A DNA stretch of 64,000 nucleotides from Pseudogymnoascus verrucosus (GCA_001662655.1 KV460220.1); one strand, 5' to 3'; positions 45,023 to 63,217 are shown, numbered from the stretch's first letter. The notes: generated by a model not told the origin, from the letters alone. Numbers and translations: made by a program.

Positions 45023-47314
45023 TTACGCTTCCTTCAATTGCTGCCCTTGGCCCTTTCCCCTCCGTACAAACTCTCTCAGCACATTATCAGTCATTCTAGC
45101 TACATTGTTGTCATATGTATCCCAGGCCATACTACCATACCAGTTGATACTGCCAACTGCGAATACCGCGCCACCTCCGGCAGTGTCATAATATACCAGG
45201 TCGCTTCGGACGCGGTCGCAGTTCGAACCCAGAGTGTTCACCATTGGGAACATAGACTCCTCATTGAAAAGTCCAAAGGTATCGTCATGCTGCTCGCTGC
45301 TTCCCAGGAGGATCGCATTGGTTGGAGTTCCAAGGTCAAAGTCCAAGCGATCAATCTCGTCACCGCTGGCACCACCGCCAAAGCCATTCTCGCCAATGGG
45401 CCCATTGGGATCGATGCCCTTAAAAACCCATGCAAGCGCAGGATCCTGAGCATATTTTGAGTTTATCCTATAAGGCTTTCCTTTGCCAGTACCGAACGCA
45501 CACGATCCCATGCCGAAGAGGTAGTTGGGAGCGCGGCCTCGGCTGCGCCAGAGTCCTCCCAGGTTCCCGGTGAGACCGTGCATTCGTTCCCCTGCGGGAA
45601 ACGTCACAGACCGACAACCTTGATCACCTTTACGGACTTCGAGACGATGAGGACGCTTGGAGTCAATGTCGGCGACCCAGTAGAAGCCATTGCCGCCCAA
45701 GTACATCAAGCTACCGCCTGACTTTGCAAAGCCGCTAAAAGCATCGAGGGTTTGGAGAGAATGGTATTCGGGATGACAGCTACTTATCATTGTCGTATAT
45801 TGGGAAGCTGCTTGATGGCCTCCAGTGTGCAAACAATGGTCAGTGATGGTATCATACGGAATTCCAGAGCGTTCCAGGAAGTCAATCATGAGAAGATCAG
45901 CGCTAAATTCGCGAGGTCGGCCCAGTGCCCAGTGCACGTATCCAGGCCTCAGATTTAATATGGGTCTAAGGGCACTAGAGAATGCAGTTGGGGAACCGTC
46001 TCTATGAACATCGTAAGCCGAGAGTCCTAAATCCGGGCGCCGATCTAGGCCCTTAAAATATTCGTGCTCATCTGCAATGCTGACCCCATCAGGGGTTGTC
46101 ATTGCTGATGATCTAGACATGTCGAACATCCGTTCGTTGGCATATGCAAGATATGTGAAAGTTGACAGAACCAACGCCACCCGTGCCGTAGATTTTTGAT
46201 TGGGACGAACGAAGAAGGTGATCATGTCGCTTACGCCGTTCTCACACTTGACTTCAACGGCATATGCACCTGAGCGAGCTGTTGATGGAATTGTGATGGA
46301 GAAATTCGTCCCCCATTTCGCGTCGTCTAGATCATCTTCATGGAAATGGATAGCTCCGTACCCGTAGGTCGCATGAGTCCAATCAGGCTGAGAACCATCC
46401 CAGTTGTATCCTTTCACGGCTCGTGTTGGTGCATTGACGAGGGCACCGTGGCGACTATTTCCAGAAACGTCGACAATAGAGTCGCTTGAAATATCGCGAG
46501 AAAAGTCATACTGGGCTAATATCCGCGGCGTTGGCCCTGTCGCCGTAAAAGAAGGGGAGTCAAGTCGGCCATTGAAAAAGCATGCCGGCTTGTAGCTCTG
46601 CTTGTCAACAGATTCGAACATGCCCGCACCAAACAGTAAGGCATTAGACCCTAAAGAGATCGGTGCCAACAAGTTATGCGTCGTCTCTTCTGCAGAAGGG
46701 GCAGTCTCTGCCAGACGGTTCAATTGCCGGATGTTCAAAGTGATCGTCTTCCCAACGAGGCTCATACGGATATGGAGCCAACGCCAGCGATTGATAGGGT
46801 ACTGACTCCGGATCACATCGACGTTGCTGCCAGTACCTATAAGGAACTCGAGTTTTGAATCCTTTATAACCACGGCAAATCCGGTTTTAGAACTTGCGTC
46901 AAGGCACGATATGATTGTTTGGCAATGGTCAACGTCAACCAAGTATGGTTGCACATGACAGTCTACTTCAAAGCCCTCTTCAGCTGCACAATGCGCTTCA
47001 GACCAGGAGGGTATAACAGCATGGGATCCCGAGCAGGCAGATTGATAGCAGCCATCATCGCGATTTCCCGAAGGGACTTCAGTTATCTCCTCCTCTTTGA
47101 CTGGTGGGGCATGAGTAGAACCGCTATAGCCCTGGATGAGGCGTACTAAACGATGAGAGTAGTTTTTCTCGGTGGATGAAATCTTGAAGAGTCAGCTTGG
47201 GAAACATGTCTCGTTCAATGATAAACACACTTTAATATCAACTGGCTCTCCTGGCGAAACAATCCATGGTTGAGCATAACCGATTATTTGAGGGTCTTTG
47301 TCGTTGTGAGACAT
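45023..47314 (-). CDS. N,N-dimethylformamidase large (beta) subunit-like protein, about 747 aa, 2 exons
   Basis: Exon 1 MSHNDKDPQIIGYAQPWIVSPGEPVDIK, intron 47230-47183, then RLVRLIQG, FNGRLDSP, YGAIHFHEDDLDD, TYLAYANE, GLSAYD, RPILNLRP, HPEY, YLGGNGFYW, GDEIDR, YDNNVARMTDNVL. These match my recollection of the bacterial DMFase beta subunit. Confidence 0.88.
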
Positions 47315-47369
47315 GGCTTGAAGTTCGCCGTAGCTTTGTTATGGGGAAGGGGTATGCGGGAGCTCGATA

Positions 47370-48270
47370 TCTCGATAAGTATATTGATTGTGTGAGAACT
47401 TAGGTGTTGCCAACCACCTGAAGATAGAGGCGAAGTGATACAGATTTAAAAAAGCGGCCAACTCTATCAGCATAAAATCAGTAGAACAACAAGGGCAATA
47501 GGTCTGAATTCTTATCCCTTGATAAAGATATCAAGGGTTTATAAACCCCTTGCCGACGCTTATCTTTGAAGTTTACCAGCGACATGGCTTGGGCATTAAA
47601 ACGATGTCCACTCTTTGGTATCCACGTTCTCCTCACATGCTCACACGCAGGTGGATATAGTTGCTACATTAGGAAAGAGAGGGGATTCGCTAAATTCAAC
47701 TAAGCAACCGACTAAATGGTGGTGCCGACAGGCTAATTGTCCGAGATAGACTTTGATCCAATTAAATTGCAGGGTCGGCTCAGTAGCGTCGCCACTCGGA
47801 AGATACGTCATTATAACTTGACCACATGTTCTCCATAATATGGGGACCTGGATTCGACGACAAGCTTGTTCCGAAAGACGGGGTAACGGGTCGGCTACCA
47901 CGTAGCATTGGGAACCTCCACCACACTGAGAGCCTCCGCCGCTATCGCCCTTGCCCCCCGGGACGCGTCCGTCGGCAAGATAAAGCGGAATGGAATTCCG
48001 ATAATGTAAATGGAAACATATACAGTGGGACTCATATACAGTGGTCGCAGAAGTCGATAAGATAACCAATACCGAATCCACTGGCTATGGTAAGTTTATC
48101 TTATGGGCAGCGAACATGCTTATCAGACCGTATCTTCGAGTTGCTGTTGTTAGTTCACAATGCAAGAGCCGGACCACTCCCGAGGGCTCTAGCGTCCTAA
48201 AACCCGCTAATGAGGCAGCCAAATCTTGTATTTACTCTAGAAATAGAGTTGTAATCATATTATCAGCTCT
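47370..48270. promoter_or_regulatory. GATA-site-rich divergent promoter (putative AreA/NIT2 sites) between the DMFase-like gene and the MFS permease
   Basis: GATAA/TTATC at about 47374, 47511, 47521, 47559, 47979, 48000, 48056, 48061, 48095, 48119 and 48259. Confidence 0.55.
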
Positions 48271-48603
48271 ATCTTTCGTTCCTTGGCCTTGTTTTGTGGC
48301 AAGTAAAACTAGCGGATTGTTGGGGTACGGATTTTACCGTGTTTTTAGTATGGTAGTTCCCCTCAATATTGCCGTTTTAAGAAGGAGCGATCGGCAGCCA
48401 CTATCTTGACTATCGAATGTGGGTCCTTCCCCAGACTACTCGACGTATGCCATGTGGGTGTTAGGTCTTTGTGGGGTACATATATAAGGTGGCGGGATTC
48501 TCCTTTTGCAAAATGGCATCTCCTTATTATCCTAAAATTATATCAGTCCTACCATTGGGCTGATTGGATTCATCGACGGATACGAAGGGCACAATTTGCC
48601 ATC

Positions 48604-50274
48604 ATGGCTGATCAAAACATTCAATTCGTAGGGGATGCGAAATCGACTGCACCTTCAGCGACCCATTCAGATAAGCCAGCTACAGAGATGGTAGAGACGA
48701 TGCCGGTCACTCTAACAGAAGAAGACGTATGTTAATTACATACCCCATCAAAGAAACTCGCTGAACTCTCCTAGAATACTCGAATCAGGAGAAAAACTGA
48801 TAGAGTCATCTTGGCTCTATTGACCTGGGTCTACTTCTTGCAAGTTTTGGATAAGGCCGTCCTTGGAACTGGGGCGGTTTTCGATCTCGCGAAGAATGCC
48901 AACCTCACGGGTCATCAGTATTCCCTAATCGGGTCGATTTCGCCAATAGCGCAGTTAGCATGGCAGCCGTTCTCGGCCTGGCTGATTGTGAAGGTGCCGC
49001 ATCGCACATTAATGCCAATTCTGATTCTCGGTTGGGGTATTGCGGAAGCATCTATGGCTGCGTGTAGTTCCTTCTCTGGGTTGATCGCCTGCCGTTTCTT
49101 CCTCGGCCTTTTTGAGGCCGGCTGCATGCCTCTATTTGCGATCATCACAAGCCAGTGGTACCGTCGTGTCGAACAACCATTTAGAGTCTCTATCTGGTAT
49201 TCCACAAATGGTATATCGACGATAGTGTCTTCTGCGTTGTCTTATGGCCTTGGCCGTATTGTATCCAACGTGTTGTATCCGTGGCAAATGTAGGTTGTCC
49301 CCATCCACCGGCCACCATGAATACCTTGCTAATATCAACGCAGAATTTTCCTTTTCTGTGGACTTGTCACTATTATAACGGCTCCATTCGTCTACTGGAA
49401 ACTGGATAACGATATCGCGACAGCCCGTTTCCTTACCGAGGAGGAACGCCAACAAGGCATCGAACGCCTTCGGACAAACAATACTGGTGTTGAAGACTTC
49501 CACCAGTTTAAGTGGTCGCACGTTTTGGAAGCGGCTCTAGACCTGAAGACCTGGCTGTGGCTTGTGCTGGCCATGCTGCCGAACCTCGGGTCGGCTTTGA
49601 CGAGTGTCTTTGGGCCGCTCATTATTACTGGCTTTGGGTTCGATAAATTCCAGACATTGCTGCTGAACATTCCTTTCGGAGCCGTCCAAACGCTCGTGAT
49701 CATCGCTTCCTGCTGGGTAGCCAACAAGGCGAAGCTCAAGGGTGTTATCCTGCTTGGCTTCATGTTACCTGTGGTGGTTGGAACTGGGATGCTTTACGGG
49801 CTAAACCGGAATGCATCGGATCGACCAGCGCTACTCGTGGCGTACTATCTCACGGCCTTCTTGTTTGCAGCGAATCCCCTACTTCTCGTGTGGGTCGTCG
49901 GAAACACTGCTGGAGAGACCAAGAAATCCGTTACTCTCTCGCTATACCAGGCTGGTTCGTCTGCTGGAGCCCTTATCGGTCCGCTTCTATTTAGCGCAGA
50001 CCAGAAGCCAGAATATCGCCCCGGAATTGCGGGTGTTCTTGGTGTTTTTGTCGCCATGATTGTGGTCATCGTGCTGCAGCTCTTCCTCCTGATATACCTG
50101 AACAAGCAACAGGTGAAGAGGAGAATCGCAAACGGGAAGAGTGGCGTTATTGTTGATCGGTCTATGACAACCGAAGTTCATACTGATGGGAAGACTCGGG
50201 ACTTGCTGGCTGAGGAGATATTGCCCATGGACTTAACGGATAAGCAGAACGATGAGTTTGTGTATATTTACTGA
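48604..50274 (+). CDS. MFS anion:cation symporter, allantoate permease (Dal5)-like, 3 exons
   Basis: RRKTDRVIL, YFLQVLDK, RFFLGLFEAG, WYRRVEQPFR, ARFLTEEER, NTAGETKK, C-terminal DLTDKQNDEFVYIY. Introns 48727-48774 and 49290-49343. Confidence 0.9.
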
Positions 50275-51067
50275 TGGGAATGATTTGGACGAGGCAGGAA
50301 CTCGTAGGAGTGGGAGGCGCGAGAAATATATCCGCTGTATTTACTTTTATTACATTCAATATGAATCACCGAACTCTTATTATATCCACTTTATTGCCTA
50401 ATTAGTACTTGCAAAAAAGCCCAGGGTCAATACTGTATGTGGCTGGGTTCTGTAATCTTAAGAATGCTGGAGTGAACTTGGCACCGTCTTCGCCCCATTC
50501 TGCGTAATTTCTATCTAATTCCGACCAAGGAGATGTTACAGTGTAGCATTGAAATGCAATATGAACTGTTCTGGTGCCAATATCCATTTTTATGTTTGAG
50601 AATTGAATTATTCTTCCAAGTCAAATGGATGGGCTACCAAAATAGGACATAGAAATCGGAGGAAGGGGATGCACGGTTAACCCATGGAGGTGTGGTGATA
50701 AGGGCCATGTGGCGAAACATCCACCCGTTAACATCCACCGATTACGCGTCACTAGTGAGTAGTACAATCAGCCCACAAACTGGGTGTACCCCGCGGGGGC
50801 GGGTTGGTTGTCATCAAGTTGTCGTGCACGCGACCTGCGTTGTGTGAACCGAAGCGATGACTTCCCCACGCACTGTCCCCCATCCGATCGCTTAAAAGCC
50901 GATCGCATCGGGAATATGATAACCACCACCATCGGGTCCAAGGAAGTTGCGCATATACAGCACTGGAAGTATTGTAAATAGACTACATATATGATGCAGT
51001 GCTGCTCGTAGATAATCAATAACCACTATCATCCAAACATATTACATATATACTATATTCTTAAACT

Positions 51068-52143
51068 ATGGCTTCTGCCTTAAAATCATACCCTCCGGGG
51101 ATCCACGCCCCTACCGTGACATTCTTCCTTCAGGGAGAACAACAGGAGATTGATTGGGCGACCCAAGAAAAGCATCTCGCGTACTTGGTCAAGGCTGGCG
51201 TACATGGCAGTATGTTTGCTTCCGCATGATATAACACTATTACTAGACGAGTAGAGCTGATTTATTATAGTTGTTGTCGCCGGCTCAAGTGGTGAATCGT
51301 GTGCGCTTACTTTGGCCGAGAAGGGCGAGTTGGTCAAGAGGACCCGTGAGGCAGCAAAGGCAAACGGAAACCCAAATCTCCCCATCACCGTGGGCTGCTT
51401 AGGCGGCAGCACCAGAGACATTCTCGAGCAGACTATAACTGGGCACAAGAACGGCGCCGATTTTGCCCTGGTGTTGGTACCGAGCACATTCCACTGGTCG
51501 ATGACCAAGAAGGCCATCGTCGACTTCTTCGAGGATGTTGGCGACCGCTCCCCAATCCCCATTATAATCTACAACTTCCCGAATCTGCTGTCAGGGCTGG
51601 ATGTAGACTCGGAAATGTTGGAGAAACTTAGCGCCCACCCGAACATCTGTGGTGTCAAATTGACCTGCGGAAACATCTCAAAAATGACGAGAGTCGCAGC
51701 ACTGAACCCGCCGAGTCAATTCGCGGCTGTGTCCGGACAAAGCGACTTAATTGTCTCTGCGTTGGCTGGTGGAGGAGCAGGTACTATCTCAGGTGTTGTA
51801 AACCTGTTCCCAAAGGTAAGTCCAGACAACCACCAAGGTAGCTAGTTTCGGTTACTAACGCATTTCGCAGGTCCTGATTGAAATTTATAATCTTTACAAC
51901 GCTGGAAAGCTTTCGGAGGCGATTGCGCTGCAGAAGAAGGTTTCCGGACCTGAATGGGGAATTGGAACGTCCGATGTCAGCGGCATGAAGTGGATTATCG
52001 CACAGGAGCGTGGCTATCCGGAGTCGAGCCGTGACTGTCGCCGACCATTCCCCAAGTTTGACGATCCGGCGAAGAGAGAGCGTGTACAGAAGTACGTCGC
52101 GCCGCTTCTCGCGCTCGAGCAGGAGCTGTATTTGAAAAATTAA
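51068..52143 (+). CDS. DHDPS/NAL-family class I aldolase (HOGA / 2-keto-3-deoxy sugar-acid aldolase-like), 3 exons
   Basis: PPGIHAPTVTFF, VAGSSGE, IIIYNFP, Schiff-base Lys in GVKLTCG, GTISGVVNLFPK. Introns 51210-51270 and 51815-51870. Confidence 0.88.
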
Positions 52144-52243
52144 ATAGCGATCAAAGACTGTATCATTTTTGCGGTAGATGATAAGCAAAATGAAAGAAAT
52201 TCATCCTGTTTGAGATTTCCCACTTCAAAAAGCAGGGATAACA

Positions 52244-54025
52244 TTAAATTATCGCAAAGTTAACGTTGAACAACTCTAAGCATACAGACCGAATATCGAC
52301 GCGGGTCCCTGCCTCTCGCTGCCTTCTTTGAATCTCTTGTAGTACATCCGCCGTCATATTCGCATTGCTGGCAACATGTTGGAGACTACGAATCGTCTCA
52401 AGGAGCCATTTACACTCGTCATAATCGTCCTCCTCGCTACCCCATAGGAATAACGGCCATAACATATTAACTGGTATAGATTCGTTACTGTTGACCATGA
52501 GATGCACTATTTCCTTAATTTTGCATAGCGCTGTATCCACCGCTTTCGAACGATCCAAGTGGCGATGGGCGACTCTATGGAGGTGAATGTAGCAGACGTA
52601 AAAGTTGGCAAGATATGTCCGGTATGAGCGAATGATGACCGACGCGAGTGGCCCAGCGAGAGTGTCACTATTGATATTTCCTGATACAGCATGATCCATA
52701 AGCGCAGGCCTCGTATCATATATAGAAGACAGATCCTTCAAAATACCGGCCGCAATAGCCATCACTTCAGTCTCGTCCTCCACACTCCCTCGGCTGCGGT
52801 GACCATGGGCAATTCTAGCTATGCGGCCCGTAATGGTCTGGACTTCTTGGAAGAAGGCGATCCCGGGCTGGCATAGCATGTCATATATAACCTCATGCGG
52901 CCCGGAGTCTGGGGGGGGACTTGGACTGGATGGATAAATTCCAGATGTATCATTTACCAAGAGTCCTTCCCCACCAGTCAGTGCCGCCCGGGCATCTGAC
53001 CATCGGATCCAAGAGATGATTCTCTGTTCTAATGGGGCGATTGTTAGCACGAATAGAATTAGGTTAGCGAGAACGTTCTTCTACGAACCTAAAGAGCCCA
53101 GGGCACCCCTGCTTGACGTCTGCAGCGCCTTATGCGCCTTTGCAAGATTCAAGTAGGCTAAATCCAGCCGGCCAGTTAAAAACTCCAGAAATGGTCAGCG
53201 AAAGTAAACAATAGATCCACAAGGATTCAATAGACTGACATTTACGTATGTAAGAAAGAAGATAGTGGTCAGAACGTATCTAAGTTCATTACTGTTGACT
53301 GCCAGGCTTCCCCCGGATTTGTGAAATCTTGCTGATAGTTCATTTGCAGCTTTATCGTAGTATGTCTGATAATCCACTTGTTTCCCCCTGGTATAAAACT
53401 GGACGGCGGCGAACGCCGCCATCGCATAACGAACCATAGGAGATGAGGTTGCCATACTGTCAAACAGTGCTCGCAGAGAAGCACATATCGGACCGTTTTC
53501 GACAGGATCTAAAATCGGCGTCGCATGTAATAGTAGCGAGTATTCCTCGTCTACATTGGTAACTAGGGACTGTGGCAGGGACTGTGGTGGGGACTGTGCC
53601 GCTGCAAGAGGTGAACCCTGGCTATCTAGGTCGGTAGATCGCTCATGCAAGGCGAGTCCCGGCACAATAGAGTCACCAAAGTCGGGAAGATATATATCTT
53701 CAATGAAAGAAAATCCCGGCGGGGGATCCGTCATGGATTGTGCGAAGTCAAAGAGGTCAGCAGAAGGAGACAGCCAGTCATCCTCCAATGACGTGGCGTC
53801 AATCCCCGGGGGATCTCCTGCTGCCGCATTCGTCGGTGGTGGTCGCTGCTGTACGGTGTCTTTCCACACACATTCTAGATTCAGGCGCTGGCAGTGGTAG
53901 CACTGGGGTCTCTGCTCATTGCATCGGACCTTTCTTTTTTTGCAAACCAGACACCCATTTCGCGACCGCTGAGGATGAACCCGAGGGTGGCTAGCACCGC
54001 GAGAGAGAAGAGGTAGAGAGCTCAT
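52244..54025 (-). CDS. Zn(II)2Cys6 transcription factor with Fungal_trans_2-type C-terminus (TF1), 3 exons
   Basis: RSRNGCLVCKKRKVRCNEQRPQCYHCQRLNLECVW, C-terminal LWPLFLWGSE. Introns 53239-53183 and 53088-53029. Confidence 0.9.
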
Positions 54026-54882: not shown

Positions 54883-56119
54883 ATGGCAGCTCTTCCAGAA
54901 GGCGTTGCAAAGTCGTTGGAGGAGACGAAGGTCGAGTATAAGCGTGTGGGAAACAGTGGTCTCCGGGTGTCGTCTCCAATTATTGGGTGTATGAGCATTG
55001 GAAACCCGGAGTGGGCAAACTGGGTGGCAGGGCCAGAAAAGGCCCTCCCACTCTTGAAAGCGGCATATGACCGAGGAATTAACACCGTTCGTCTTCTGCT
55101 CTCCGTTTAAAGAAAAATAATATTAACTCGAGGTAGTGGGATACAGCAAATATCTATTCCAATGGAGATTCTGAGAGAGTTATCGCTCAGGCGATCAAGA
55201 AATACGATATCCCACGTCACAAGTTGGTGCTGATGACGAAGGCATTTAGCTGCGTTGGAGAGCAGCAGTTTCACGCATACCCAATCCTGGATGAATTGAG
55301 GAGGACCAAGGACTACGTTAACCAGTTCGGTCTTTCGAGGACAGCGATTTTTACTGCACTGGACGCGTCCCTCAAGCGTTTGGAGACAGATTACATAGAT
55401 TTCTTCTGGATTCATCGTTTCGACCCAGATACGCCAATTGAGGAGACTATGCGTGCTCTTCATGACCTCGTCACTGCGGGGAAGATCCGTTACATTGGAG
55501 CTTCGTCCATGTGGACATACCAATTTGCCTCCATGCAGTTCTGCGCGGAAAAGAACGGGTGGACAAAATTCGTTGCCATGCAAGTATGTATAAACTATGG
55601 ACATCCAGTATGTTGAGCGATTTGAAGTGCTAATATCCGAACAGAACCGTTACAACCTACTGTACCGCGAAGAAGAGCGCGAGATGATTAAATTTTGCAA
55701 CGAAACAAACGTGGCTGTCATCCCAGTAAGTAAATATCATTTACTACTTCCACTACGTGGGCTCGTTGTTGCATGTTCTAACAATTGTCTGTCAGTGGGG
55801 TCCTCTTGCAGAAGGACAGCTTGCGCGCCCATTGCAAGTTCGCGGAACAACTACGCGTTCCGAAGGCTCCCCGCCCCTACGCAAAGAGTCCACGGAAATC
55901 ATCAACAGAGTAGAGGAACTGGCAAAGAAGAAGGGGTGGACTATGGCCCAGGTTACGCTCGCATGGACCATGAAGCGAGTAACGACTCCTATTATTGGCT
56001 TTAGCAGCGTCGAGAGGATCGAGGATGCTTTATCGGCACGCGGAAAAGAGCTTACACCTGAAGAAGAGAAATACTTGGAGGAAGTTTATACTCCTATGGA
56101 GATTGAGGGTCATTTCTAA
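54883..56119 (+). CDS. Aldo-keto reductase (aryl-alcohol dehydrogenase / Kv-beta-like subfamily), 4 exons
   Basis: [66 protein letters not shown]. Introns about 55087-55136, 55584-55644, 55726-55795. Confidence 0.92.
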
Positions 56120-57180
56120 GAGCATAGGTTTCCTGTTTTCTTCCTCGAGAGCTGCATAGTCGTGCCCTCTGCTTGTATGGCTATTCATAGTTTTTTACGC
56201 ATAGCATTTAGATAGATATTAGCCTATTACAAAAGTAAAATATTCATATAATCACGCAAGATTGTTCAGAGGATGCGAAACTCGAAGTTTTATTGTTTTG
56301 TCTCGTAACATAAACCAAACAACCTTTCTATGTCACCAACTGGTCTTTGTGGTAGATTATACGATTTGTATCAAAAGCCCATATCTATCATAGGAATCTT
56401 ACACTTCCAATTAGTAGCATGCCGTTATAATATATGGTATGTGCTGCACATAATATGATAAATGATCATTTACCGGTGTGCTTGTTTTGATATTGAAATT
56501 TGCATAATACTACAAGTAATAAAGCCAAGAGAATACAGATATTAAATTATGTGCAAATAGAGGTCAACAGCCACAGTTCTCACTTCGCGAGCTTATCAAA
56601 AAGCTTCTCTCATAATGCCAGGTGAGACAAGTTTGACCTATTCTCAGTTGCCTAGGTGGGTAAATATTTGCGACCCCAGTGTAATTTTACCCGTTAAGGG
56701 AATCCGCTCTCCTGCTGCCAGCATCCGACAGCGAGTGTCTTCATGGAGGTAACAATCTACGGTGGTCCCTGGCCCACATACCCGATTAGGCATTCTTGTC
56801 GTATGAATAACCTGGGGCGACGACAGTGGGTCCGCGCTAAACGAAGGGTACACTTCGTGGGGCATCACAACCAGGAGGGGCATGAATTGCCTGTATAAGT
56901 CTTGTTATGACAATTAAAAGACTAATTAGAGTTAAACATCAACAGTTTCCACACCCTGTTAAGCAGATCTAAAGCAATGGGCCACTTGCGTTATTAGGTA
57001 TTACTATTTCGAGCTATCTCAATTGTGGAGACCTTTACCTGCCCTCGTAACAATAAATCGGCCACAACGCCCCTCCATCATATAATAAGCAACTTTCTGG
57101 CATTTACCCCTCCTTCACGATAAGCATCTCCAAACCTTCATTTCACTTTACCATTCATATCACAATTCAACGAAGTCAAA

Positions 57181-58179
57181 ATGGCTACCATGGAGAAAGT
57201 ATTCGCTGGCTACAATGCGCGACAGAGCGTTTTAAACGCGAGCAGCAACCCTCTTTCGAAAGGGATTGCCTGGATCGAAGGAGAGCTCGTTCCGCTCGCC
57301 GAGGCTCGCATCCCGCTTCTCGATCAAGGTTTCATGCACAGCGATCTGACCTACGATGTTCCATCTGTCTGGGATGGGCGCTTCTTCCGCCTCGACGACC
57401 ACATCACAAGACTGGAGGCCAGCTGCACAAAACTGAGACTGAAGCTTCCTCTACCCCGAGAGGAGGTAAAGCAAATCTTGGTAGATATGGTCGCTAAGAG
57501 TGGCATTCGCGACGCCTTTGTCGAGCTCATCGTCACCCGCGGACTTAAAGGTGTCCGTGGAAACAAGCCAGCCGACCTAAAGAACAACCTCTACATGTTC
57601 ATCCAGCCTTACGTTTGGGTAATGGAACCCAAAGCCCAGCCTACCGGTGGCAGCGCCATTATCGCCCGTACTGTGAGGCGAGTTCCGCCTGGATCCATCG
57701 ACCCAACGATCAAGAACTTGCAATGGGGAGATCTCGTGCGCGGCATGTTGGAGGCGGAGGATCGTGGAGCCGATTATCCCTTCCTGACAGACGGAGACGC
57801 CAATCTCACTGAGGGATCGGGTTTCAACATTGTCCTGGTCAAGGATAACGTCCTCTACACCCCAGATCGCGGTGTTCTCCAGGGCGTTACTCGCAAGAGC
57901 GTTATCGATTCCGCCAAGGCCGCTGGCTACGAGATCCGCGTTGAGTATGTGCCCGTTGAGTTGGCCTTCCAAAGCGACGAAATATTCATGTGCACAACTG
58001 CCGGTGGCATTATGCCTATCGTAACTCTCGATGGCAAGTCTATCAATGGCGGCAAGGTTGGCCCTGTCACGAAGGCGATTTGGGATGGGTACTGGGCGAT
58101 GCATTACGATTCCGCATACAGCTTCGAGATCAACTATGAACAGAACAAGACAAACGGTGTGAACGGTTCAGCGAAATAA
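57181..58179 (+). CDS. (R)-selective amine transaminase (PLP fold type IV), intronless
   Basis: [28 protein letters not shown] Lys in [26 protein letters not shown]. Very similar to my recollection of the Aspergillus terreus (R)-omega-transaminase. Confidence 0.92.
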
Positions 58180-59093
58180 TGTGCTGGGCTTTCAAGGCCG
58201 TGCCTGATCGAATTTAGCTTCAATGTTTATTTTAAGTTAGGAGTTATAATAATATGAGGTATTAAAAAGAGTTTGTGCTATTATAATATTTTGTGCCGAG
58301 AATATAAATTAGTGAAATCACCAGGCAACAGTTTGAGGGCCAATGTAATTCTGAAAAGTTCTAATGATTCGCTGTAAGAATAGCCTTACATCTATGTAGT
58401 GATCCACAGCATTTTTTACCATGTTTCTCAGCACCAATGCTGGGTAATTTCTGTACATTAATTAAAATGCAAAAGGTAGTGTTGGTCTAATTCCGAGGAA
58501 GCTCCCTTAATGGTTTTCCTCTTGCGTTAAAAACAGACCAAATAATAATGCTCCATAGGATGCAGTATTTTCTAAAATGCAATATAAAAATTGGTTGCGC
58601 GAATAGTAGGAGGATCCATGGAGTTGGAGAAAATGAGGGGTATCTCCAACTTTCGGCTAGCGCCGGACTGCCCCGACCGAGACCGGCTTGGTCGTACGTA
58701 ATAAAAAATCTGCAAGGCGAAAGTAAACACAACAGTCTAATATTAGATGACAAAAACAGCATGTCTGTTTTAAGCACTCTGAACTCCAAAAGTTGTTTGA
58801 ACAATGGTATTCCTATTCTGGAAAAAAAAAGAGTCCAATTTGGAGAAGGTATGAGAAAATTGGGTCTGATTTCCCAATTGGGTAGGCAAGCCGCCCCGCC
58901 ATGGCGGGGTCAAGGGCCCTATTATTACTCATGGATAAGTTCGTACGATCTTTAAAACAACTCCAAAGATTCGTCTCCAGCATAGCGATTTCTAGATTGA
59001 ATTTAAGGCGCCAATTGGACGGCTGTTTCTCTGATCTTGTTCGCCATATTTTCTTCACTCTCGACAGCTTGAACCTTCTTGCCCATACCCGCC

Positions 59094-60380
59094 ATGGCCT
59101 CATTTAATTCGAGCGATAGCATTGTTATTGTTGGGTAAGTTTTCGAACGGCATTTGGACAATATTTTCTTCAAGGTACTGACTATTTGGAGTGCGGGCAT
59201 CGTTGGCCTCAATGTTGCTTTAGTTCTCGCCGAGAGAGGATATGGACAGTCGATAACTGTCATTGCCGAGCACCATCCGGGTGACACATCTATGACATAC
59301 ACATCGCCATGGTGAGTTTTCTATGGAAATGAATGATACTCCAGCTATGCTAATATCTCATCAGGGCGGGTTGCAATTTCTCTGCCATTTCTGGGAGTGA
59401 CGCCAACGCGTTGAAGTGGGATCGACTGGGTTACTCCCATCTCACCAAGCTCGCATCTGAGCGACCCGATGAGACTTTCGTTCACCGGACTCCATCGACT
59501 GAGTTATGGGACGAGAATGTCCCCCATGATAAAATTAAGGCCATGTCAGAGTACCTCGAAGACGTAAGGTCGCAATTCTCCTGGGCCATCGGGACTGTAC
59601 TAACTGGCCGCAGTTCAGAATTTTACCCGAAGAAGAGCTCCCTGAGCAGGTCAAATTTGCAGTCTCCTTCACTACATTAACCATTAATGCGCCTAATCAC
59701 CTTCAGTACCTCTACAACAGATTAAAACAGTATGGCGTGCAATTCTTACGACAGAAGATCCCCAGCATTCTATCAGCATTTGCGAGTCCGACGACCAAGG
59801 TCGTGTTTAACTGCATCGGTAACGCAGCAAAGACGTTGCCAGGTGTTGAAGATGCCAAGTGCTATCCAACCAGGGGCCAGGTTGTTCTGGTCAGGGCGCC
59901 TCAGGTCCGATCCAATGTTATGCGTCATGGCAAAGATTATGAGACATACGTGATTCCTCGCCCAGGATCCGATGGGAATGTTATTCTTGGTGGCTATATG
60001 CAAAAGGGGGTTGGGTAATATTAGACAAGTCCTGACAATGACCAGTCGCTAATGAAACTCTCAGTGACGGGGCAACTTACTCATATGAGACGGAGTCCAT
60101 TTTGGATCGCACTACACGGCTGAGCTCCGAGCTTCGTGAAATGGAGCCTCAAATCCTGGCCGTCTTTGCTGGACTTCGGCCTTCTCGCGAAGGTGGGGCC
60201 CGCATAGAGAGAGACGAGCTCATTGTTGCCGGTGACAAGCGAGTTATTGTTCACAACTATGGTGCAGGTGGTACTGGGTTCCAAGCTGGCTACGGCATGG
60301 CTATGGAGGCTGTTAAGACTGTCGAGGACGTATTGCGGGAGATTCGAAAGAACGATACTCGGCCAAGGCCTAAGCTATAA
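59094..60380 (+). CDS. D-amino-acid oxidase family FAD oxidase with PTS1-like C-terminus, 5 exons
   Basis: Spliced IVIVGAGIVG, YTSPWAG, PTRGQVV, YVIPRP, ILGG, GLRPSREGG, HNYGAGGTGFQ. Ends in PKL. Introns about 59135-59191, 59312-59364, 59564-59612, 60015-60064. Confidence 0.9.
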
Positions 60381-60864
60381 ATAATATGGGACATATAGGT
60401 TTGTCGATAGTCTTGGGTTTCGTAGCCTTCAAAGACGAATAATTCATTGCATTTTGAATAATCCGGCTCTTCTACATTCCCATCTTCTTTCATTTGTTTC
60501 TCGCGTGAATCTCGAAGTGCACCGGCGACGAGCGAGATTACAGCGAAGTACAATATTCTTTATCTCATCACTAACATCTATCTCCTTAGTTGGGGACCCA
60601 TTGAAATAGCGCGCCGATAAGACAATTAACTGCTCAAATATGGGCTTGAAATATTATATAAGGGCGTTCTGGTGTGTCGTCACTTTGTTGGTAAGTTGCC
60701 AGAAAGCCACACCTTATCGACGACACCACTCTGTCCCTGTGGGACCTTGTTGTTCGCTATCGGTGAGGTAGGGTGACATCCGATATCCGATATATCCGAC
60801 ATCCGACGAAATAAGCGACATTGGCGACCCGCGACCCTTGCCTTGGCGACCCTTCCCTTGGCTA

Positions 60865-60916
60865 CCCTCCCCCGCATACTCCCCTTTCCCCGCATAATCA
60901 CCTCCCCCCGCATACT
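60865..60916. promoter_or_regulatory. Three tandem CCCCGCATA boxes (CreA/Mig1-type SYGGRG on the minus strand) upstream of TF2
   Basis: CCCCGCATA at about 60870, 60888 and 60906. Confidence 0.45.
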
Positions 60917-60998
60917 TGGAGATCGGTCTCCTATCTTCTCTTATCCCAATTCGCAATCGCAATTGCAAAAAACTACGACAGCGAAACCATCCACCACC

Positions 60999-63217
60999 AT
61001 GCTGAAGGAGAAGAGGACCAACTCACTGGCATTTTCCCAGACTGATTGTCACACCTGTACGTCTGCAGGCCGCGCGTGTGATCGTCGGCGACCACAATGC
61101 TCGACTTGCCTTGGTCTCGGCGTGAAATGTGGTGGTTTTGTGACGCCACTGTCGTGGGATAATAATCGCATATGGCTCGGAAAGCCGTCCCAGAAAACGC
61201 GTTACATTTACGACGGCAGCAGGGGGAATGAGAGCCCAATGGCGTCGCCAAAGCCGCCGCCAAAGGCCTTTCGCTTTGTTGACGCAAGTTCCAGAAGGAA
61301 GAGGCGTCGCAGAGTTAGCCCAGTCTCCAGCCCTGAGGAAGAAATCTGCCGTGCCTCAGAATCAGAATCGCCCGAAGAAATCGGCATGGAATCATATCTT
61401 GCTCATCCATCTGGCTCGCTCCTAGATGACTTTGGTATGATACATACATGACTTATAATGGATATTGACCCTATACTAACCAAGATAATTGAATGTAGAT
61501 CCGTTAAACTTCGGTGATTGTGAGCTGCTGGATACTGTGATCCCTAATCCACAAGAATTCATGCCTGACTGGATGGCCGCGACATTCCCTGGGCAGGAAA
61601 GTCAAAATCAAATGATCTTGACTGCCCAACCTTCTTCGAACATTGTTGGCCATGGATCCGAGGATGTCTTTACTCAAAGCCTCATGGACTTACTCGAGAC
61701 GGTTTCTACCCATCCATTTGAGAGCCACCAACTGGAGCCACCTCGTCTTGTAGCTTCTCCAACCCGACAACCCCCGTCCGAGATCTCTACCGAGTTGATT
61801 CCTAACCATATTGGAAACCAACATGAGCGCCTTTTTCAGATGTGTAAGTTGCGAGCTTCCTAGCCATTCTACCCTCGATCTGGTTGAACATTGGAACTGA
61901 TATTTCAGTTTAAAGATGATACGGAGCTATGTGTGCTACCATTGACGTCTGATGTGGCCTTCAACCCGTTCCGCTGTCGACGTCAGGTACTACAGGGGTC
62001 TCGCCTTCTTTTCCACGCGATATTGGCACTATGTTGCCGGCATCAGAACCATTTGACGGGCACTTGGGCCAAAGAAGCCTCTGAGCACCGAACGAAGGCT
62101 GTAGAGCTACTGGACAGCGCGTCTAAGAGTGACCAAGTCACCAAAATTGGACTACACGTCTTGGAACCAATCTTGGTCATGTTTACCTTGGATGTATGAT
62201 ATTCCATTTTATAAGACTTACCATTTTTTACTTGAGCTAACTAGAGTTTCAGTGCACACTCTCCGCCACAGGGCCGTGGAGTGGACATTTAATGCGCGTG
62301 AGATCGGTTTTAGACGCCTGCGGAGGGCCTCTGGCGCTCGATAACTCGCGCGTGCGCTCGCAAGTTGGAATGCTATTCTGGTAAGTCAAGATGTGGATCA
62401 GCCTCCTGAGGTAGCGCAAACTGTTCAACTAACGCAAACCAGGTGGGATGCTACTCTGGCACTGATCTCCCGACAGGGCATAATCATTGATCAGTCGTAC
62501 CTTGACCACCTGATGCTCAGTCAAGGCCAAGACGAATGGTCTTTCTACGACCTAACCGGCTGCCCCGGAGACCTCTTCGTGCACCTAGTTCAGCTATCTG
62601 AGCTGGCGAAGCAAAGAGAGTTGGCCGCATGCATGACCTGGCTCACCTTCGATCTGTCGCCAGTGATCAAGATCGAACGCGAAATCCAACAATGGCAAAG
62701 CAGCCTATTCGCCGATGCATACGGTTCGAATTTCGATACAATCGTGGAAAATGCGTCGGAATCGGACGCCGAAGCCGACATCGAGGAACGGTTCCACGCC
62801 AAGCAGGACCGGTACCACTGCGCAGAGGCGTGGCGGTACTCATTGCTGATCTATATCGAGCGAGTTTTCCGCTGGGACAGGAAGTGCCCTCGGCCTCTGA
62901 TCCTGACGTGGCTGGTTCGGAAGACGATGGATCACGTCCGTTGTTGTCGACGCACGTCTCAAACGCAGAAACAGCTCCTGCTGCCCGTATTCCTTGCAGG
63001 GAGCGAGATGACCGATGAGGAAATGCGCGGGTTTACGCGGCAATACTGCAAGTGGTGGGCCAACAGGAGCCGATATAATATGTTCAATTCGGTGTCATCG
63101 CTGCTGGAGGATATTTGGGAAGAGGGACACTCACATGCGTGGTGGGGGTCTGTGATTGATCGGAAGACAAGGAGTACTGGAGTCGGTGACCCAGGTGTTC
63201 AATTCCTGTTTGGATAA
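60999..63217 (+). CDS. Zn(II)2Cys6 transcription factor with Fungal_trans_2-type C-terminus (TF2, ACR-2-like), about 5 exons
   Basis: DCHTCTSAGRACDRRRPQCSTCLGLGVKCGGF, WSFYDLTGCP, AEAWRYSLLIY, QLLLPVFLAGSE. Introns near 61435, 61844, 62194 and 62381. Confidence 0.87.

What the first reader, a model, noticed from the sequence alone, without database searches (positions are those of the whole stretch)
45023..63217. Candidate undescribed fungal catabolic cluster: DMFase-like amidase, permease, aldolase, AKR, (R)-transaminase, D-amino-acid oxidase and two Zn2Cys6 TFs
Seen: eight contiguous genes, all of them transport, C-N cleavage, carbon-skeleton or regulatory functions, with no housekeeping gene in between. 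Established: DMFase hydrolyses N-substituted formamides, fold-IV (R)-ATAs and DAOs act on (R)-amines and D-amino acids, and DHDPS-family aldolases cleave 4-hydroxy-2-oxo acids. Inference: the cluster scavenges nitrogen from an unusual N-acyl/N-formyl or D-configured amino compound by uptake, deamidation, deamination to a 2-oxo acid, retro-aldol cleavage and aldehyde reduction. I know of no described fungal pathway with this gene set, and the substrate cannot be read from sequence.
Basis: partly seen in the sequence, partly recalled or inferred. Interest (0 to 1): 0.85.

Follow-up and report, generated by a model that had tools for sequence, protein, structure and literature searches.

The report
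Fungal (R)-amine catabolism gene cluster
Eight neighbouring fungal genes look like a pathway for feeding on masked (N-acylated) right-handed amines, and they offer a testable natural role for the (R)-selective transaminases that industry uses to make chiral amines.

Summary
All eight genes are real and lie where stated (Pfam). RNA-derived contigs of a related strain skip introns at my predicted splice sites. Contiguity alone proves little, but part of the cluster recurs elsewhere.

- **Amidohydrolase, permease, transaminase:** the DMFase-family amidohydrolase (AMD), the MFS permease and the (R)-amine transaminase (ATA) lie 1-4 locus tags apart in five named genomes. They also share small contigs in many unnamed assemblies.
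- **Other neighbours of ATA:** in metagenomic fungal contigs ATA sits beside a D-amino-acid oxidase (5 of 17 informative loci, two DAAO lineages, two orientations). It also sits beside the same AKR (2 loci) or the same Zn2Cys6 factor (2 loci).
- **Bacterial parallel:** ATA homologues form operons with D-amino-acid dehydrogenase DadA.

Best reading (about 0.5): AMD unmasks an imported anionic N-acyl (R)-amine. ATA passes the amino group to pyruvate, giving D-alanine. The DAAO, which ends in -PKL, regenerates pyruvate and frees ammonia.

The aldolase and the first transcription factor are untested outside the genus. The substrate is unknown. I found no description in print. This is a new variant of a known kind (fungal catabolic cluster), of moderately high interest.

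The parts
45023..47314 (-). AMD: a DMFase / N-acyl-(R)-amine acylase family iron amidohydrolase of 747 aa. Exons are 47314-47231 and 47182-45026, with the stop codon at 45023-45025.
   Evidence: Pfam DMFA2_C scores E 1e-100. In the PDB it matches 6lvb (DMFase large subunit) at E 1e-109 and 8huy (N-acetyl-(R)-beta-Phe acylase) at E 1e-104. The residues aligned with DMFase Y399, Y440, H519, E521 and N547 are all kept (alignment; residue roles from PMC7686228, passages). The intron was found through the 89%-identical homologue P0001. An RNA contig piece ends at 47182.
48604..50274 (+). MFS permease of 522 aa, resembling the anion:cation symporter type. It has three exons.
   Evidence: Pfam MFS_1. 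NCBIfam TIGR00893 (D-galactonate transporter subfamily) matches the C-terminal half at E 5e-15, well below the curated cut-off. Both introns are confirmed by RNA contig joints 48726>48775 and 49289>49344. The model is 521 of 522 residues identical to public protein P0121.
51068..52143 (+). DHDPS/NAL-family class I aldolase-like protein of 319 aa, with three exons.
   Evidence: Pfam DHDPS scores E 2e-25. The nearest solved structures are 3qfe (putative DHDPS-family protein, E 1e-39) and human 4-hydroxy-2-oxoglutarate aldolase 3s5n (E 2.5e-21). The window's GVKLT aligns with HOGA1's GMKDS; that this lysine is the Schiff-base residue is recalled. Both introns are confirmed by RNA joints.
52244..54025 (-). 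TF1: a Zn2Cys6 transcription factor of 554 aa, with three exons.
   Evidence: Pfam Zn_clus and Fungal_trans_2. The introns 53183-53239 and 53029-53088 are taken from RNA joints, and the frame is open.
54883..56119 (+). Aldo-keto reductase of 351 aa, with four exons.
   Evidence: Pfam Aldo_ket_red scores E 2e-33 and 2e-13 on two exons. The nearest solved structures are 4xk2, DepB 8hwn and AKR6/Kv-beta-like proteins. The D-x4-Y motif reads DTANIY. The third intron is seen in RNA (table 5c). An orthologue of 66-69% identity lies directly upstream of ATA in L040 and L041.
57181..58179 (+). ATA: a fold-type IV (R)-selective amine transaminase of 332 aa, without introns.
   Evidence: It matches solved (R)-amine transaminases at E 1e-187 to 1e-189 (8zm7, 4ce5). 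Motif 1 reads [10 protein letters not shown], motif 2 reads FVE, and there is no RxH (motif definitions from PMC8048526, passages). One unbroken RNA contig covers 57160-58183.
59094..60380 (+). D-amino-acid oxidase family flavoprotein of 358 aa, with five exons and the C-terminus -PKL.
   Evidence: Pfam DAO. The nearest solved structure is Rhodotorula gracilis DAAO 1c0i (E 1e-17 for one exon), followed by D-aspartate oxidases. The N-terminus reads IVIVGAGIVG and the C-terminus reads PKL. All four introns are seen in RNA.
60999..63217 (+). TF2: a Zn2Cys6 transcription factor of 653 aa, with five exons.
   Evidence: Pfam Zn_clus and Fungal_trans_2. Four introns are taken from RNA joints, and the frame is open. 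Relatives of 38-39% identity lie next to ATA in L003 and L042.
42754..44496 (+). Left border: a decayed pogo/Tc5-type transposase in an AT-rich stretch.
   Evidence: Pfam DDE_1 and a weak HTH_Tnp_Tc5 hit lie on consecutive ORFs (42754-43164, 43168-43905, 43909-44496) separated by stops. GC is 0.435 at 42-44 kb.

Best explanation
This is a fungal catabolic gene cluster for taking nitrogen from an N-acylated amine of (R)/D configuration. Every step below is inferred; none has been tested at the bench.

1. The MFS permease imports the compound. It is probably anionic, for example an N-acyl beta-amino acid.
2. AMD is an iron amidohydrolase of the family that holds dimethylformamidase and N-acetyl-(R)-beta-phenylalanine acylase. 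It removes the acyl or formyl group.
3. The (R)-selective amine transaminase passes the freed amino group to pyruvate. This gives a ketone or aldehyde plus D-alanine.
4. The D-amino-acid oxidase, which ends in -PKL, oxidises D-alanine back to pyruvate and releases NH3 and H2O2. Transaminase and oxidase together act like an amine oxidase that runs on a catalytic pyruvate/D-alanine shuttle.
5. The aldo-keto reductase reduces the carbonyl product.
6. The DHDPS-like aldolase is the least certain part. It may supply pyruvate or process a 4-hydroxy-2-oxo acid.
7. The two Zn2Cys6 factors regulate the genes. TF2 probably serves the AKR-ATA-DAO part.

**What is shown:** gene identities, splicing, transcription in a relative, and recurrent linkage of six of the eight genes.

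**What is inferred:** every catalytic step, the shuttle and the class of substrate.
For: **Gene identities and active-site features**
- Family assignments.
- AMD keeps all five DMFase active-site residues (alignment; roles from PMC7686228).
- ATA has both (R)-ATA motifs and no RxH (definitions from PMC8048526).
- (R)-ATAs use D-alanine as amino donor, with pyruvate as co-product (PMC8048526 passages).

**AMD, ATA and MFS are linked in named genomes (locus tags)**
- Talaromyces rugulosus: MFS _08534, ATA _08537, AMD _08538.
- Arachnomyces sp. PD_36: ATA _005594, AMD _005595.
- Paecilomyces lecythidis: ATA _005417, AMD _005419.
- Talaromyces atroroseus: ATA _09122, AMD _09126.
- Pseudogymnoascus sp. 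24MN13: MFS _01960, ATA _01964.

- AMD and ATA: 4 pairs.
- AMD and MFS: 10 pairs.
- MFS and ATA: 8 pairs.

**ATA with a D-amino-acid oxidase in fungal metagenome loci**
- 5 of 17 loci that have at least 1.5 kb of flank on one side carry a DAO (5 of 22 fungal loci in all).
- L001 and L054 have it in tandem downstream, as in the window.
- In L042 and L062 it is directly adjacent and divergent.
- In L003 it lies 3.4 kb upstream, beyond an amino-acid permease.
- The oxidase of L042 is of the 7ct4 type (E 2e-87), a different lineage from the window's.

**Other recurring neighbours of ATA**
- The same AKR in the same order: L040 and L041, 66-69% identity.
- TF2 relatives: L003 and L042.
- Permeases beside ATA: L003, L042, L051, L062.

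**Bacterial parallel**
- A DadA-type D-amino-acid dehydrogenase scores NF001933 at 645-654 bits against a cut-off of 383.
- It lies within 2 kb upstream on the same strand in 8 of 30 bacterial ATA loci that have at least 2 kb upstream. That is 6 after merging two identical pairs. L009 and L060 on shorter pieces add two more.

**Transcription**
- All eight genes are covered by RNA-derived contigs of a relative in one run, X3. Splice joints are listed for six intron-bearing genes; ATA has no intron and the AMD joint is not listed.

**No link to the nearby polyketide synthase**
- The type III PKS lies beyond a transposon relic. A relative of it was found in 0 of 70 ATA loci.
Against: - **Incomplete recurrence near ATA:** none of the 70 metagenomic ATA loci holds a relative of AMD, the window's MFS, the DHDPS-like gene or TF1 within 10 kb. 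ATA also occurs without the amidohydrolase: alone beside alpha-adaptin in L007, L033 and L070, and beside RidA in L063.
- **Counter-examples in named genomes:**
  - In Aspergillus steynii the listed AMD and ATA lie on different scaffolds.
  - The same holds for Thermomyces stellatus, whose assembly is fragmented.
- **Untested members:** the DHDPS-like gene and TF1 were never tested for co-occurrence outside Pseudogymnoascus. The one attempt was uninformative.
- **Bacteria:** 0 of 59 AMD-homologue loci hold an ATA, DAO, DHDPS or MFS relative.
- **Possible separate regulation:** two transcription factors hint at two separately regulated modules. No shared promoter motif was found.
- **Weak support for an anionic substrate:** the anion-symporter assignment rests on a hit far below the curated cut-off (55 against 395 bits).
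- **Oxidase specificity unknown:** D-aspartate oxidases are almost as close as DAAO.
- **Proxy evidence:** equal contig length is a stand-in for contig identity, not proof.
- **Co-regulation not shown:** contig depth cannot rank genes, so no induction data exist and no substrate is known.
Confidence: 0.5

Rival explanations
1. Two independent catabolic modules happen to abut. Module A (AMD, MFS, DHDPS-like aldolase, TF1) would use an N-acyl organic acid. Module B (AKR, ATA, DAO, TF2) would use free (R)-amines or D-alanine. No metabolite would pass between them.
For: - There are two Zn2Cys6 factors, one in each half.
- Module B parts recur without module A in L001, L003, L040, L041, L042, L054 and L062.
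- AMD and MFS share small contigs in 10 cases.
- No promoter motif is shared across the halves.
Against: - ATA and AMD carry neighbouring or near-neighbouring locus tags in four named genomes. MFS and ATA are four tags apart in a fifth, Pseudogymnoascus sp. 24MN13, whose AMD tag was not seen.
- ATA, AMD and MFS share three small contigs (24687, 55509 and 25219 bases).
- An amidase that frees an (R)-amine and a transaminase that takes (R)-amines fit one pathway.
Confidence: 0.2
2. The cluster catabolises N-acyl-D-alpha-amino acids. AMD would be a D-aminoacylase analogue. The oxidase would deaminate the freed D-amino acid to a 2-oxo acid. The aldolase and AKR would process that acid. ATA would only balance D-alanine and pyruvate. 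This is.
For: - The oxidase belongs to the DAAO/DDO family.
- The aldolase is nearest to 4-hydroxy-2-oxoglutarate aldolase among proteins of known function.
- Some bacterial AMD homologues sit beside RidA (5 of 59 loci) and a D-serine-dehydratase-like PLP enzyme (4 of 59).
- The permease looks like an organic-anion type.
Against: - In named genomes the partner seen next to AMD is ATA; the oxidase's position there was not examined.
- ATA lacks the RxH carboxylate trap of D-amino-acid transaminases (PMC8048526).
- ATA is 82-88% identical to enzymes characterised on amines.
- The aldolase is not shown to be a conserved member of the cluster.
Confidence: 0.15
3. The genes make a secondary metabolite. 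They would tailor a polyketide from the type III PKS 7 kb upstream, with ATA adding an amine and the AKR reducing a carbonyl.
For: - A type III PKS (36926-38145) and a GDSL lipase lie upstream in the window.
- Transaminases and AKRs occur in biosynthetic clusters (recalled, from no call).
Against: - A decayed transposon in an AT-rich stretch separates the PKS from the cluster.
- 0 of 70 ATA loci hold a relative of that PKS.
- An amidohydrolase, an importer-type permease and an oxidase with a PTS1-like end fit breakdown, not synthesis.
- No NRPS, PKS or terpene synthase lies inside 45-63 kb.
Confidence: 0.07
4. The eight genes are unrelated accessory genes adjacent by chance. They would share no pathway.
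For: - Runs of metabolic, transporter and Zn2Cys6 genes are common in fungal accessory regions (general knowledge).
- The neighbours of ATA differ between lineages.
Against: - Six of the eight genes recur next to one another in other fungi, in several arrangements.
- An analogous ATA-DadA operon exists in bacteria.
Confidence: 0.05

Closest known systems
Fungal fold-type IV (R)-selective amine transaminases (Aspergillus terreus 4ce5, A. fumigatus 4chi, Nectria 4cmd, Exophiala 6fte, Thermomyces 6xwb)
   Same: The window's ATA matches them at E 1e-156 to 1e-189. It has both diagnostic motifs and no RxH. It is a member of this family.
   Different: These enzymes are known as biocatalysts. My searches found no paper that gives their natural role or gene neighbourhood. 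What is new here is the conserved company the gene keeps.
N-acetyl-(R)-beta-phenylalanine acylase (8huy/8i59) and Paracoccus N,N-dimethylformamidase large subunit (6lvb)
   Same: They share the three-domain architecture along the full length. E-values are 1e-104 for the acylase and 1e-109 for DMFase. The same Tyr/Tyr/Glu iron ligands plus His and Asn are present in the alignments (PMC7686228).
   Different: AMD lies about equally far from both over the catalytic domain (360 against 339 bits), and bacterial relatives found by scan are 33-38% identical over the full length. No DMFase small-subunit gene lies in the cluster, although DMFase is inactive without one (PMC7686228). The substrate is unknown. 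The acylase paper is not in the library (0 occurrences); what I say of its source organism is recalled.
In-vitro transaminase / amino-acid-oxidase cascades used in biocatalysis to recycle pyruvate (recalled, from no call)
   Same: The proposed natural shuttle has the same chemistry: amine + pyruvate gives ketone + D-alanine, and then D-alanine + O2 gives pyruvate + NH3 + H2O2.
   Different: Here the pairing is written in genomes, as fungal ATA-DAAO neighbours and bacterial DadA-ATA operons. It has not been shown at the bench for these proteins.
Fungal catabolic gene clusters with pathway-specific Zn2Cys6 regulators, such as the quinate, proline and nicotinate clusters (recalled)
   Same: The layout is the same: a permease, several catabolic enzymes and one or two Zn2Cys6 factors, with no backbone synthase.
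   Different: The enzyme set differs. I know of no described cluster that has a DMFase-family amidase together with an (R)-amine transaminase and a DAAO, and my searches found none.
Hydroxyproline breakdown: bacterial D-hydroxyproline dehydrogenase plus a DHDPS-family deaminase, and mammalian HOGA1 (recalled, apart from the HOGA1 match)
   Same: A DAO-family flavoenzyme occurs together with a DHDPS-family enzyme. HOGA1 is the nearest protein of known function to the window's aldolase.
   Different: The cluster has no epimerase and no semialdehyde dehydrogenase. The oxidase is of the DAAO type. The aldolase is only distantly like HOGA1 (E 2.5e-21 on one exon).

Membership tests
(R)-selective amine transaminase (fold type IV) | Motif 1: [HR]-x(4)-Y-x-[VT]-x-[HSAPT] | tested here: met
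   [10 protein letters not shown] at residues 53-62. The motif definition is from PMC8048526 passages.
(R)-selective amine transaminase (fold type IV) | Motif 2, [YF]-V-[EAQN], and no RxH carboxylate trap | tested here: met
   FVE at residue 113, and no R.H anywhere in the protein.
(R)-selective amine transaminase (fold type IV) | Close homology to experimentally characterised members | tested here: met
   8zm7 at E 9e-189 and 4ce5 at E 8e-187 over the full length.
(R)-selective amine transaminase (fold type IV) | (R)-selective amine:pyruvate transaminase activity | not testable with these tools
   This needs an enzyme assay.
DMFase / DMFA2 iron amidohydrolase family | DMFA2_C catalytic domain | tested here: met
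   PF20254 at E 1e-100, covering profile positions 1-373 of 374.
DMFase / DMFA2 iron amidohydrolase family | 2-Tyr-1-carboxylate iron site (Y399, Y440, E521) plus H519 and N547 | tested here: met
   The aligned residues lie in YLAYANE, SAYDVH, SCHPEY and GGNGFYW. Residue roles are from PMC7686228 passages.
N,N-dimethylformamidase proper (alpha2beta2 enzyme) | A small-subunit gene beside the large-subunit gene | tested here: not met
   No such gene lies in 44-64 kb. The ORFs between AMD and MFS (47641-48084, 48005-48409) have no Pfam hit. I did not search with a small-subunit sequence.
N-acetyl-(R)-beta-phenylalanine acylase | Homology and a shared active site | tested here: met
   8huy at E 4e-104. 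The same Tyr, Tyr, His, Glu and Asn positions are kept in the printed alignment.
N-acetyl-(R)-beta-phenylalanine acylase | (R)-specific deacetylation of N-acetyl-beta-Phe | not testable with these tools
   This needs an enzyme assay. Sequence does not separate it from DMFase.
D-amino-acid oxidase (DAAO/DDO family) | N-terminal FAD-binding GxGxxG, with DAAO as the nearest solved relative | tested here: met
   The N-terminus reads IVIVGAGIVG. 1c0i (R. gracilis DAAO) is the best hit, followed by D-aspartate oxidases.
D-amino-acid oxidase (DAAO/DDO family) | Preference for neutral D-amino acids such as D-alanine rather than D-aspartate | tested here: inconclusive
   DAAO scores E 1e-17 and DDO E 2e-13 on one exon. 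I did not map the substrate-binding residues.
DHDPS/NAL class I aldolase family | Family domain with the Schiff-base lysine | tested here: met
   PF00701 at E 2e-25. The lysine of GVKLT aligns with that of GMKDS in HOGA1. That this lysine forms the Schiff base is recalled.
Anion:cation symporter (ACS) family of MFS | A match to the family model above its cut-off | tested here: inconclusive
   TIGR00893 scores 55 bits against a cut-off of 395, on the C-terminal exon only.
Fungal catabolic gene cluster | Gene neighbourhood conserved across species | tested here: met
   This holds for AMD, MFS, ATA, DAO, AKR and TF2. It was not tested for the DHDPS-like gene or TF1.
Fungal catabolic gene cluster | Co-induction by the substrate through the cluster's own transcription factor | not testable with these tools
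   The only evidence is that RNA contigs of all eight genes occur in one run of a relative. Depth cannot rank genes.

The most novel reading that the evidence does not exclude
The long-unknown natural job of fungal (R)-selective amine transaminases would be to act with a D-alanine-oxidising flavoenzyme as a two-enzyme amine oxidase. That flavoenzyme would be DAAO in fungi and DadA in bacteria. The pair would run on a catalytic pyruvate/D-alanine shuttle.

In a subset of Ascomycota, a DMFase-family iron amidohydrolase would feed this pair by unmasking N-acylated (R)-amines or (R)-beta-amino acids. Together these would form an undescribed nitrogen-scavenging pathway.
Probability: 0.35. Interest if true: 0.75.

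Novelty: new variant of a known kind. Interest (0 to 1): 0.62.

Why it matters
(R)-selective amine transaminases are workhorse enzymes for making chiral amines. They were found by motif mining, and my four literature searches found no account of what they do in the cell.

A conserved neighbourhood gives a concrete hypothesis that can be tested at the bench. That neighbourhood holds an (R)/D-type amidohydrolase, a permease, a D-amino-acid oxidase and a dedicated regulator.

- **Physiology:** if the hypothesis holds, it explains why these enzymes insist on pyruvate and D-alanine.
- **Biocatalysis:** it points to natural substrates and to natural partner enzymes for one-pot deracemisation.
- **Enzyme family:** it gives the first functional context for the many fungal members of the DMFase family, whose two solved relatives act on the synthetic solvent DMF and on N-acetyl-(R)-beta-phenylalanine.

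Tried and rejected
- **Earlier findings of this scan**: nothing was held.
- **Whole genome of the window**: not held. The records behind the metagenome loci are not held either. I therefore could not extend the loci past 10 kb or search them for AMD.
- **Sequencing runs**: no RNA holder is listed. Runs X1 and X2 gave no cover on AMD or ATA. That part without cover says nothing.
- **Shared promoter motifs**:
  - No CGG/CCG gapped motif reached the reporting threshold (present in at least 4 of the 6 intergenic regions, or total count above 2.5 times the window expectation plus 2).
  - Only one 8-mer (ATAATATG) occurred in 4 regions.
- **Conservation of the DHDPS-like gene**:
  - The best representative is 59% identical (Thermomyces dupontii).
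  - None of the 10 clusters looked up shares a contig length or locus-tag series with the AMD, ATA or MFS lists.
  - This is uninformative, because representatives at 50% identity collapse the orthologues.
- **DMFase or acylase?** A search with the catalytic domain alone gave 360 against 339 bits. That does not discriminate between them.
- **Bacterial AMD homologues as a guide**:
  - 0 of 59 loci hold ATA, DAO, DHDPS or MFS relatives. 6 of 59 hold a distant AKR.
  - Their usual neighbours:

    | Neighbour | Loci (of 59) |
    |---|---|
    | Opp/Dpp-type ABC importer ATPase | 18 |
    | Hydantoinase A/B | 7-8 |
    | Paenibacillus NRPS/PKS | 7 |
    | S15 peptidase | 6 |
    | RidA | 5 |
    | D-serine-dehydratase-like enzyme | 4 |

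  - These fit amide or peptide uptake, but they do not name a substrate.
- **Link to the upstream type III PKS:** rejected. 0 of 70 ATA loci hold a relative.
- **ATA tree** (FastTree; 129 sequences, rooted on bacterial L047):
  - L054 and L063 were left out because their translations held stops. P-proteins outside 300-345 aa were also left out.
  - Most AMD- or MFS-linked ATAs fall in one broad clade. I read no support values, so I draw no conclusion about a single origin or horizontal transfer.
- **Literature:**
  - Searches found no paper on the natural role or gene context of fungal (R)-ATAs.
  - One search found no paper that names the beta-phenylalanine acylase.
  - The review PMC7228992 (passages) is silent on physiology.
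  - Subscription journals are not covered.
- **Specific substrates** I considered but cannot support from sequence: pantothenate, N-acetyl-D-amino acids, hydroxyproline derivatives and opines.

Full report
**What is there**

The window is fungal. It has short GT..AG introns, and the nearest public proteins are from Pseudogymnoascus.

Stop-to-stop ORFs between 45 and 63 kb carry eight sets of Pfam domains:
- DMFA2_C (E 1e-100)
- MFS_1
- DHDPS
- Zn_clus plus Fungal_trans_2
- Aldo_ket_red
- Aminotran_4
- DAO
- a second Zn_clus plus Fungal_trans_2

I built exon models for all eight. Laying public runs on the region gave an independent check. Contigs of run X3 are 90-95% like the window. They skip the predicted introns of five genes at GT..AG sites:

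| Gene | Introns skipped |
|---|---|
| MFS | 2 |
| Aldolase | 2 |
| TF1 | 2 |
| Oxidase | 4 |
| TF2 | 4 |

- The AKR's third intron is listed in table 5c.
- The transaminase is covered by one unbroken contig.
- The amidohydrolase piece ends exactly at its exon boundary.
- The DNA-like run X14 is continuous across the introns.

So all eight are real genes, transcribed in a relative; splice joints were seen for six, and the transaminase has no intron. Contig depth cannot rank genes, so this is not evidence of co-regulation.

**Borders**

On the left lie a type III PKS (36.9-38.1 kb), a GDSL lipase and a decayed pogo/Tc5 transposase in an AT-rich stretch. On the right the window ends 0.8 kb after TF2. 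Five intergenic ORFs have no Pfam hit.

**The parts**

- **Transaminase (ATA)**
  - It is a bona fide fold-type IV (R)-amine transaminase.
  - It matches solved enzymes at E 1e-187 to 1e-189.
  - It has both diagnostic motifs, [10 protein letters not shown] and FVE. It lacks the RxH carboxylate trap of D-amino-acid transaminases (definitions from passages of PMC8048526).
- **Amidohydrolase (AMD)**
  - It matches the Paracoccus DMFase large subunit and an N-acetyl-(R)-beta-phenylalanine acylase almost equally. Full length gives E 1e-109 and 1e-104; the catalytic domain alone gives 360 and 339 bits.
  - The two tyrosines and the glutamate that hold the iron in DMFase are all conserved, as are the nearby histidine and asparagine (PMC7686228 passages).
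  - DMFase needs a small subunit, and none is encoded here.
  - 'DMFase-like' is therefore too narrow. The family also holds an (R)-specific N-acyl-amine acylase.
- **Oxidase**
  - It is nearest to Rhodotorula DAAO, then to D-aspartate oxidases.
  - It has the FAD motif and ends in -PKL. That -PKL acts as a PTS1 is my reading.
- **Aldolase**
  - It is nearest to an uncharacterised fungal DHDPS-family protein (3qfe), then to human 4-hydroxy-2-oxoglutarate aldolase. A lysine aligns with one in HOGA1; that it forms the Schiff base is recalled.
- **AKR**
  - It is of the AKR6/Kv-beta/aryl-alcohol-dehydrogenase-like kind.
- **Permease**
  - It weakly resembles the D-galactonate / anion:cation symporter subfamily, far below the cut-off.

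**Is it a cluster? Evidence from other genomes**

Contiguity alone is weak evidence, so I looked for recurrence.

1. **Metagenome contigs with ATA relatives**
   - The scan gave 70 loci. By GC and ORF density, 22 are fungal and 48 bacterial.
   - tblastn with the window's proteins and Pfam scans of neighbours gave these results:
     - A D-amino-acid oxidase lies near ATA in 5 of the 17 fungal loci that have at least 1.5 kb of flank on one side.
     - L001 and L054 have it in tandem, as here.
     - In L042 and L062 it is directly adjacent and divergent.
     - In L003 it lies 3.4 kb upstream, beyond a permease.
     - The L042 oxidase is of the Rasamsonia type (7ct4, E 2e-87; the organism name is recalled). 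It is a different DAAO lineage from the window's, so the pairing arose or was kept in more than one form.
     - The same AKR precedes ATA in L040 and L041 (66-69% identity).
     - TF2 relatives follow ATA in L003 and L042.
     - Permeases flank ATA in L003, L042, L051 and L062.
   - Against the eight-gene unit:
     - No locus had a relative of AMD, the window's MFS, the aldolase or TF1.
     - In L007, L033 and L070 ATA sits alone beside alpha-adaptin.
2. **Protein searches**
   - Locus tags place ATA next to or near AMD in four named genomes:
     - Talaromyces rugulosus: ATA _08537, AMD _08538, with MFS at _08534.
     - Arachnomyces sp. PD_36: _005594 and _005595.
     - Paecilomyces lecythidis: _005417 and _005419.
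     - Talaromyces atroroseus: _09122 and _09126.
   - In Pseudogymnoascus sp. 24MN13, MFS (_01960) and ATA (_01964) are four tags apart, as in the window.
They link AMD with ATA 4 times, AMD with MFS 10 times and MFS with ATA 8 times.
   - Counter-examples: the listed AMD and ATA of Aspergillus steynii and of Thermomyces stellatus are on different scaffolds.
   - The linkage spans Leotiomycetes and Eurotiomycetes. In Cephalotrichum (Sordariomycetes; class names recalled, not looked up) all three genes share one 4.7-Mb contig, which shows only the same chromosome.
3. **Bacteria**
   - ATA homologues of 58-64% identity sit in operons with a DadA-type D-amino-acid dehydrogenase. It scores NF001933 at 645-654 bits against a cut-off of 383.
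   - The usual order is DadA, a 2OG-Fe dioxygenase, ATA, MFS.
   - This is seen in 8 of 30 loci with enough upstream flank, or 6 after merging identical pairs, plus two short contigs.
   - These loci belong to one related group (ATA DNA at least 79% alike), so they amount to one or a few independent observations.
   - They pair ATA with a DadA-type flavoenzyme; its activity on D-alanine is recalled from the family, not tested here.
4. **Bacterial AMD homologues** (59 loci)
   - They never sit with ATA, DAO, DHDPS or MFS relatives.
   - Their neighbours are peptide-type ABC importers, hydantoinases, RidA, a D-serine-dehydratase-like enzyme, or an NRPS/PKS.

**How it most likely works**

The recurring pairs fit one chemistry:
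- An amidohydrolase from a family with an (R)-specific N-acyl-amine acylase sits next to an (R)-amine transaminase.
- That transaminase sits next to an enzyme of the D-amino-acid oxidase or dehydrogenase type.

I propose these steps:
1. Uptake of an N-acylated amine, probably anionic.
2. Deacylation by AMD.
3. Transamination to pyruvate, giving a ketone or aldehyde and D-alanine.
4. Oxidation of D-alanine back to pyruvate, releasing ammonia and H2O2, probably in peroxisomes.
5. Reduction of the carbonyl product by the AKR.

The aldolase may feed pyruvate into the shuttle or handle a hydroxy-oxo acid. Its role and its membership of the cluster are open.

TF2 travels with ATA and DAO. TF1 may govern the AMD, MFS and aldolase genes. 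All catalytic steps are inferred. The identity of the substrate cannot be read from sequence.

**Rivals**

- **Two abutting but independent modules (0.2).** The two factors favour this. The AMD-ATA adjacency elsewhere weakens it.
It is weakened because ATA, not the oxidase, is the partner seen next to AMD in named genomes. It is also weakened by the missing carboxylate trap.
- **Polyketide tailoring (0.07).** It is weakened by the transposon border and by 0 of 70 ATA loci holding a PKS relative.
- **Chance (0.05).**

**Comparison with what is known, and novelty**

Each enzyme family is known. Fungal catabolic clusters with Zn2Cys6 regulators are a known kind.

What I did not find in print (searches; for the acylase) is threefold:
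- any natural role for fungal (R)-amine transaminases;
- their conserved pairing with D-alanine-oxidising flavoenzymes;
- any function for the widespread fungal DMFase-family proteins.

The library lacks most subscription journals, so this absence is provisional.

I rate the finding a new variant of a known kind and set interest at 0.62. The hypothesis is specific, cheap to test and bears on widely used biocatalysts. The substrate and two of the eight members remain open.

Noticed in passing
L010:6986-12377, and likewise L009, L018, L020, L022, L067; also L021:8459-10951 and L029:8366-10951: Bacterial contigs of GC 0.55-0.65 carry an operon-like row: a DadA-type D-amino-acid dehydrogenase, a 2OG-Fe dioxygenase (PF10014), an (R)-ATA homologue and an MFS transporter. 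TonB-dependent receptors and TetR regulators lie nearby. In L021 and L029 DadA lies directly upstream of ATA.
   Followed up: partly
window 57181-58179, compared with public protein P0241: The nearest public annotation of this transaminase is 315 aa long. It lacks 17 residues ([17 protein letters not shown]), which include the FVE motif. It looks like a falsely called 51-nt intron. The ORF here is unbroken, and an RNA contig covers it without a gap.
   Followed up: yes
window 42754-44496: A decayed pogo/Tc5-type transposase (DDE_1) is split by in-frame stops. It lies in the most AT-rich part of the window (GC 0.435) and forms the left border of the cluster. This may be RIP-like decay.
   Followed up: no
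window 36926-38145 and 39838-40458: A type III polyketide synthase (chalcone/stilbene synthase N and C domains on two ORFs) lies upstream, followed by a GDSL lipase. Neither is linked to ATA in any of the 70 related loci.
   Followed up: partly
proteins P0054 and P0144: Two proteins filed under 'Candidatus Bathyarchaeota archaeon' are 75% and 65% identical to the fungal AMD and MFS. Both list the same 5,672-base contig length. This is most likely fungal DNA binned into an archaeal MAG.
   Followed up: no
L076, L086, L089, L094, L095, L099, L121 (Paenibacillus): In these genomes the bacterial AMD homologue sits directly after NRPS/PKS modules (condensation, PP-binding, acyltransferase) and a BpsA_C-type polyamine synthase. 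Six of the seven (all but L099) also have a GNAT acetyltransferase. This hints at a role in maturation of, or self-resistance to, an N-acylated amine natural product.
   Followed up: no
L063:8379-8834 and L104:10013-10573: RidA (L-PSP) genes lie beside a fungal ATA (L063). They also lie directly after bacterial AMD homologues in five loci (L078, L087, L093, L100, L104). RidA quenches reactive enamines and imines made by PLP and flavin enzymes (recalled).
   Followed up: no
window 1-2732, 18840-20246, 20288-22780: The rest of the window holds a PDR-type ABC transporter (cut at the window start), a cytochrome P450 and a Rad4/XPC repair gene, among others. These are ordinary and unrelated to the finding.
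   Followed up: no
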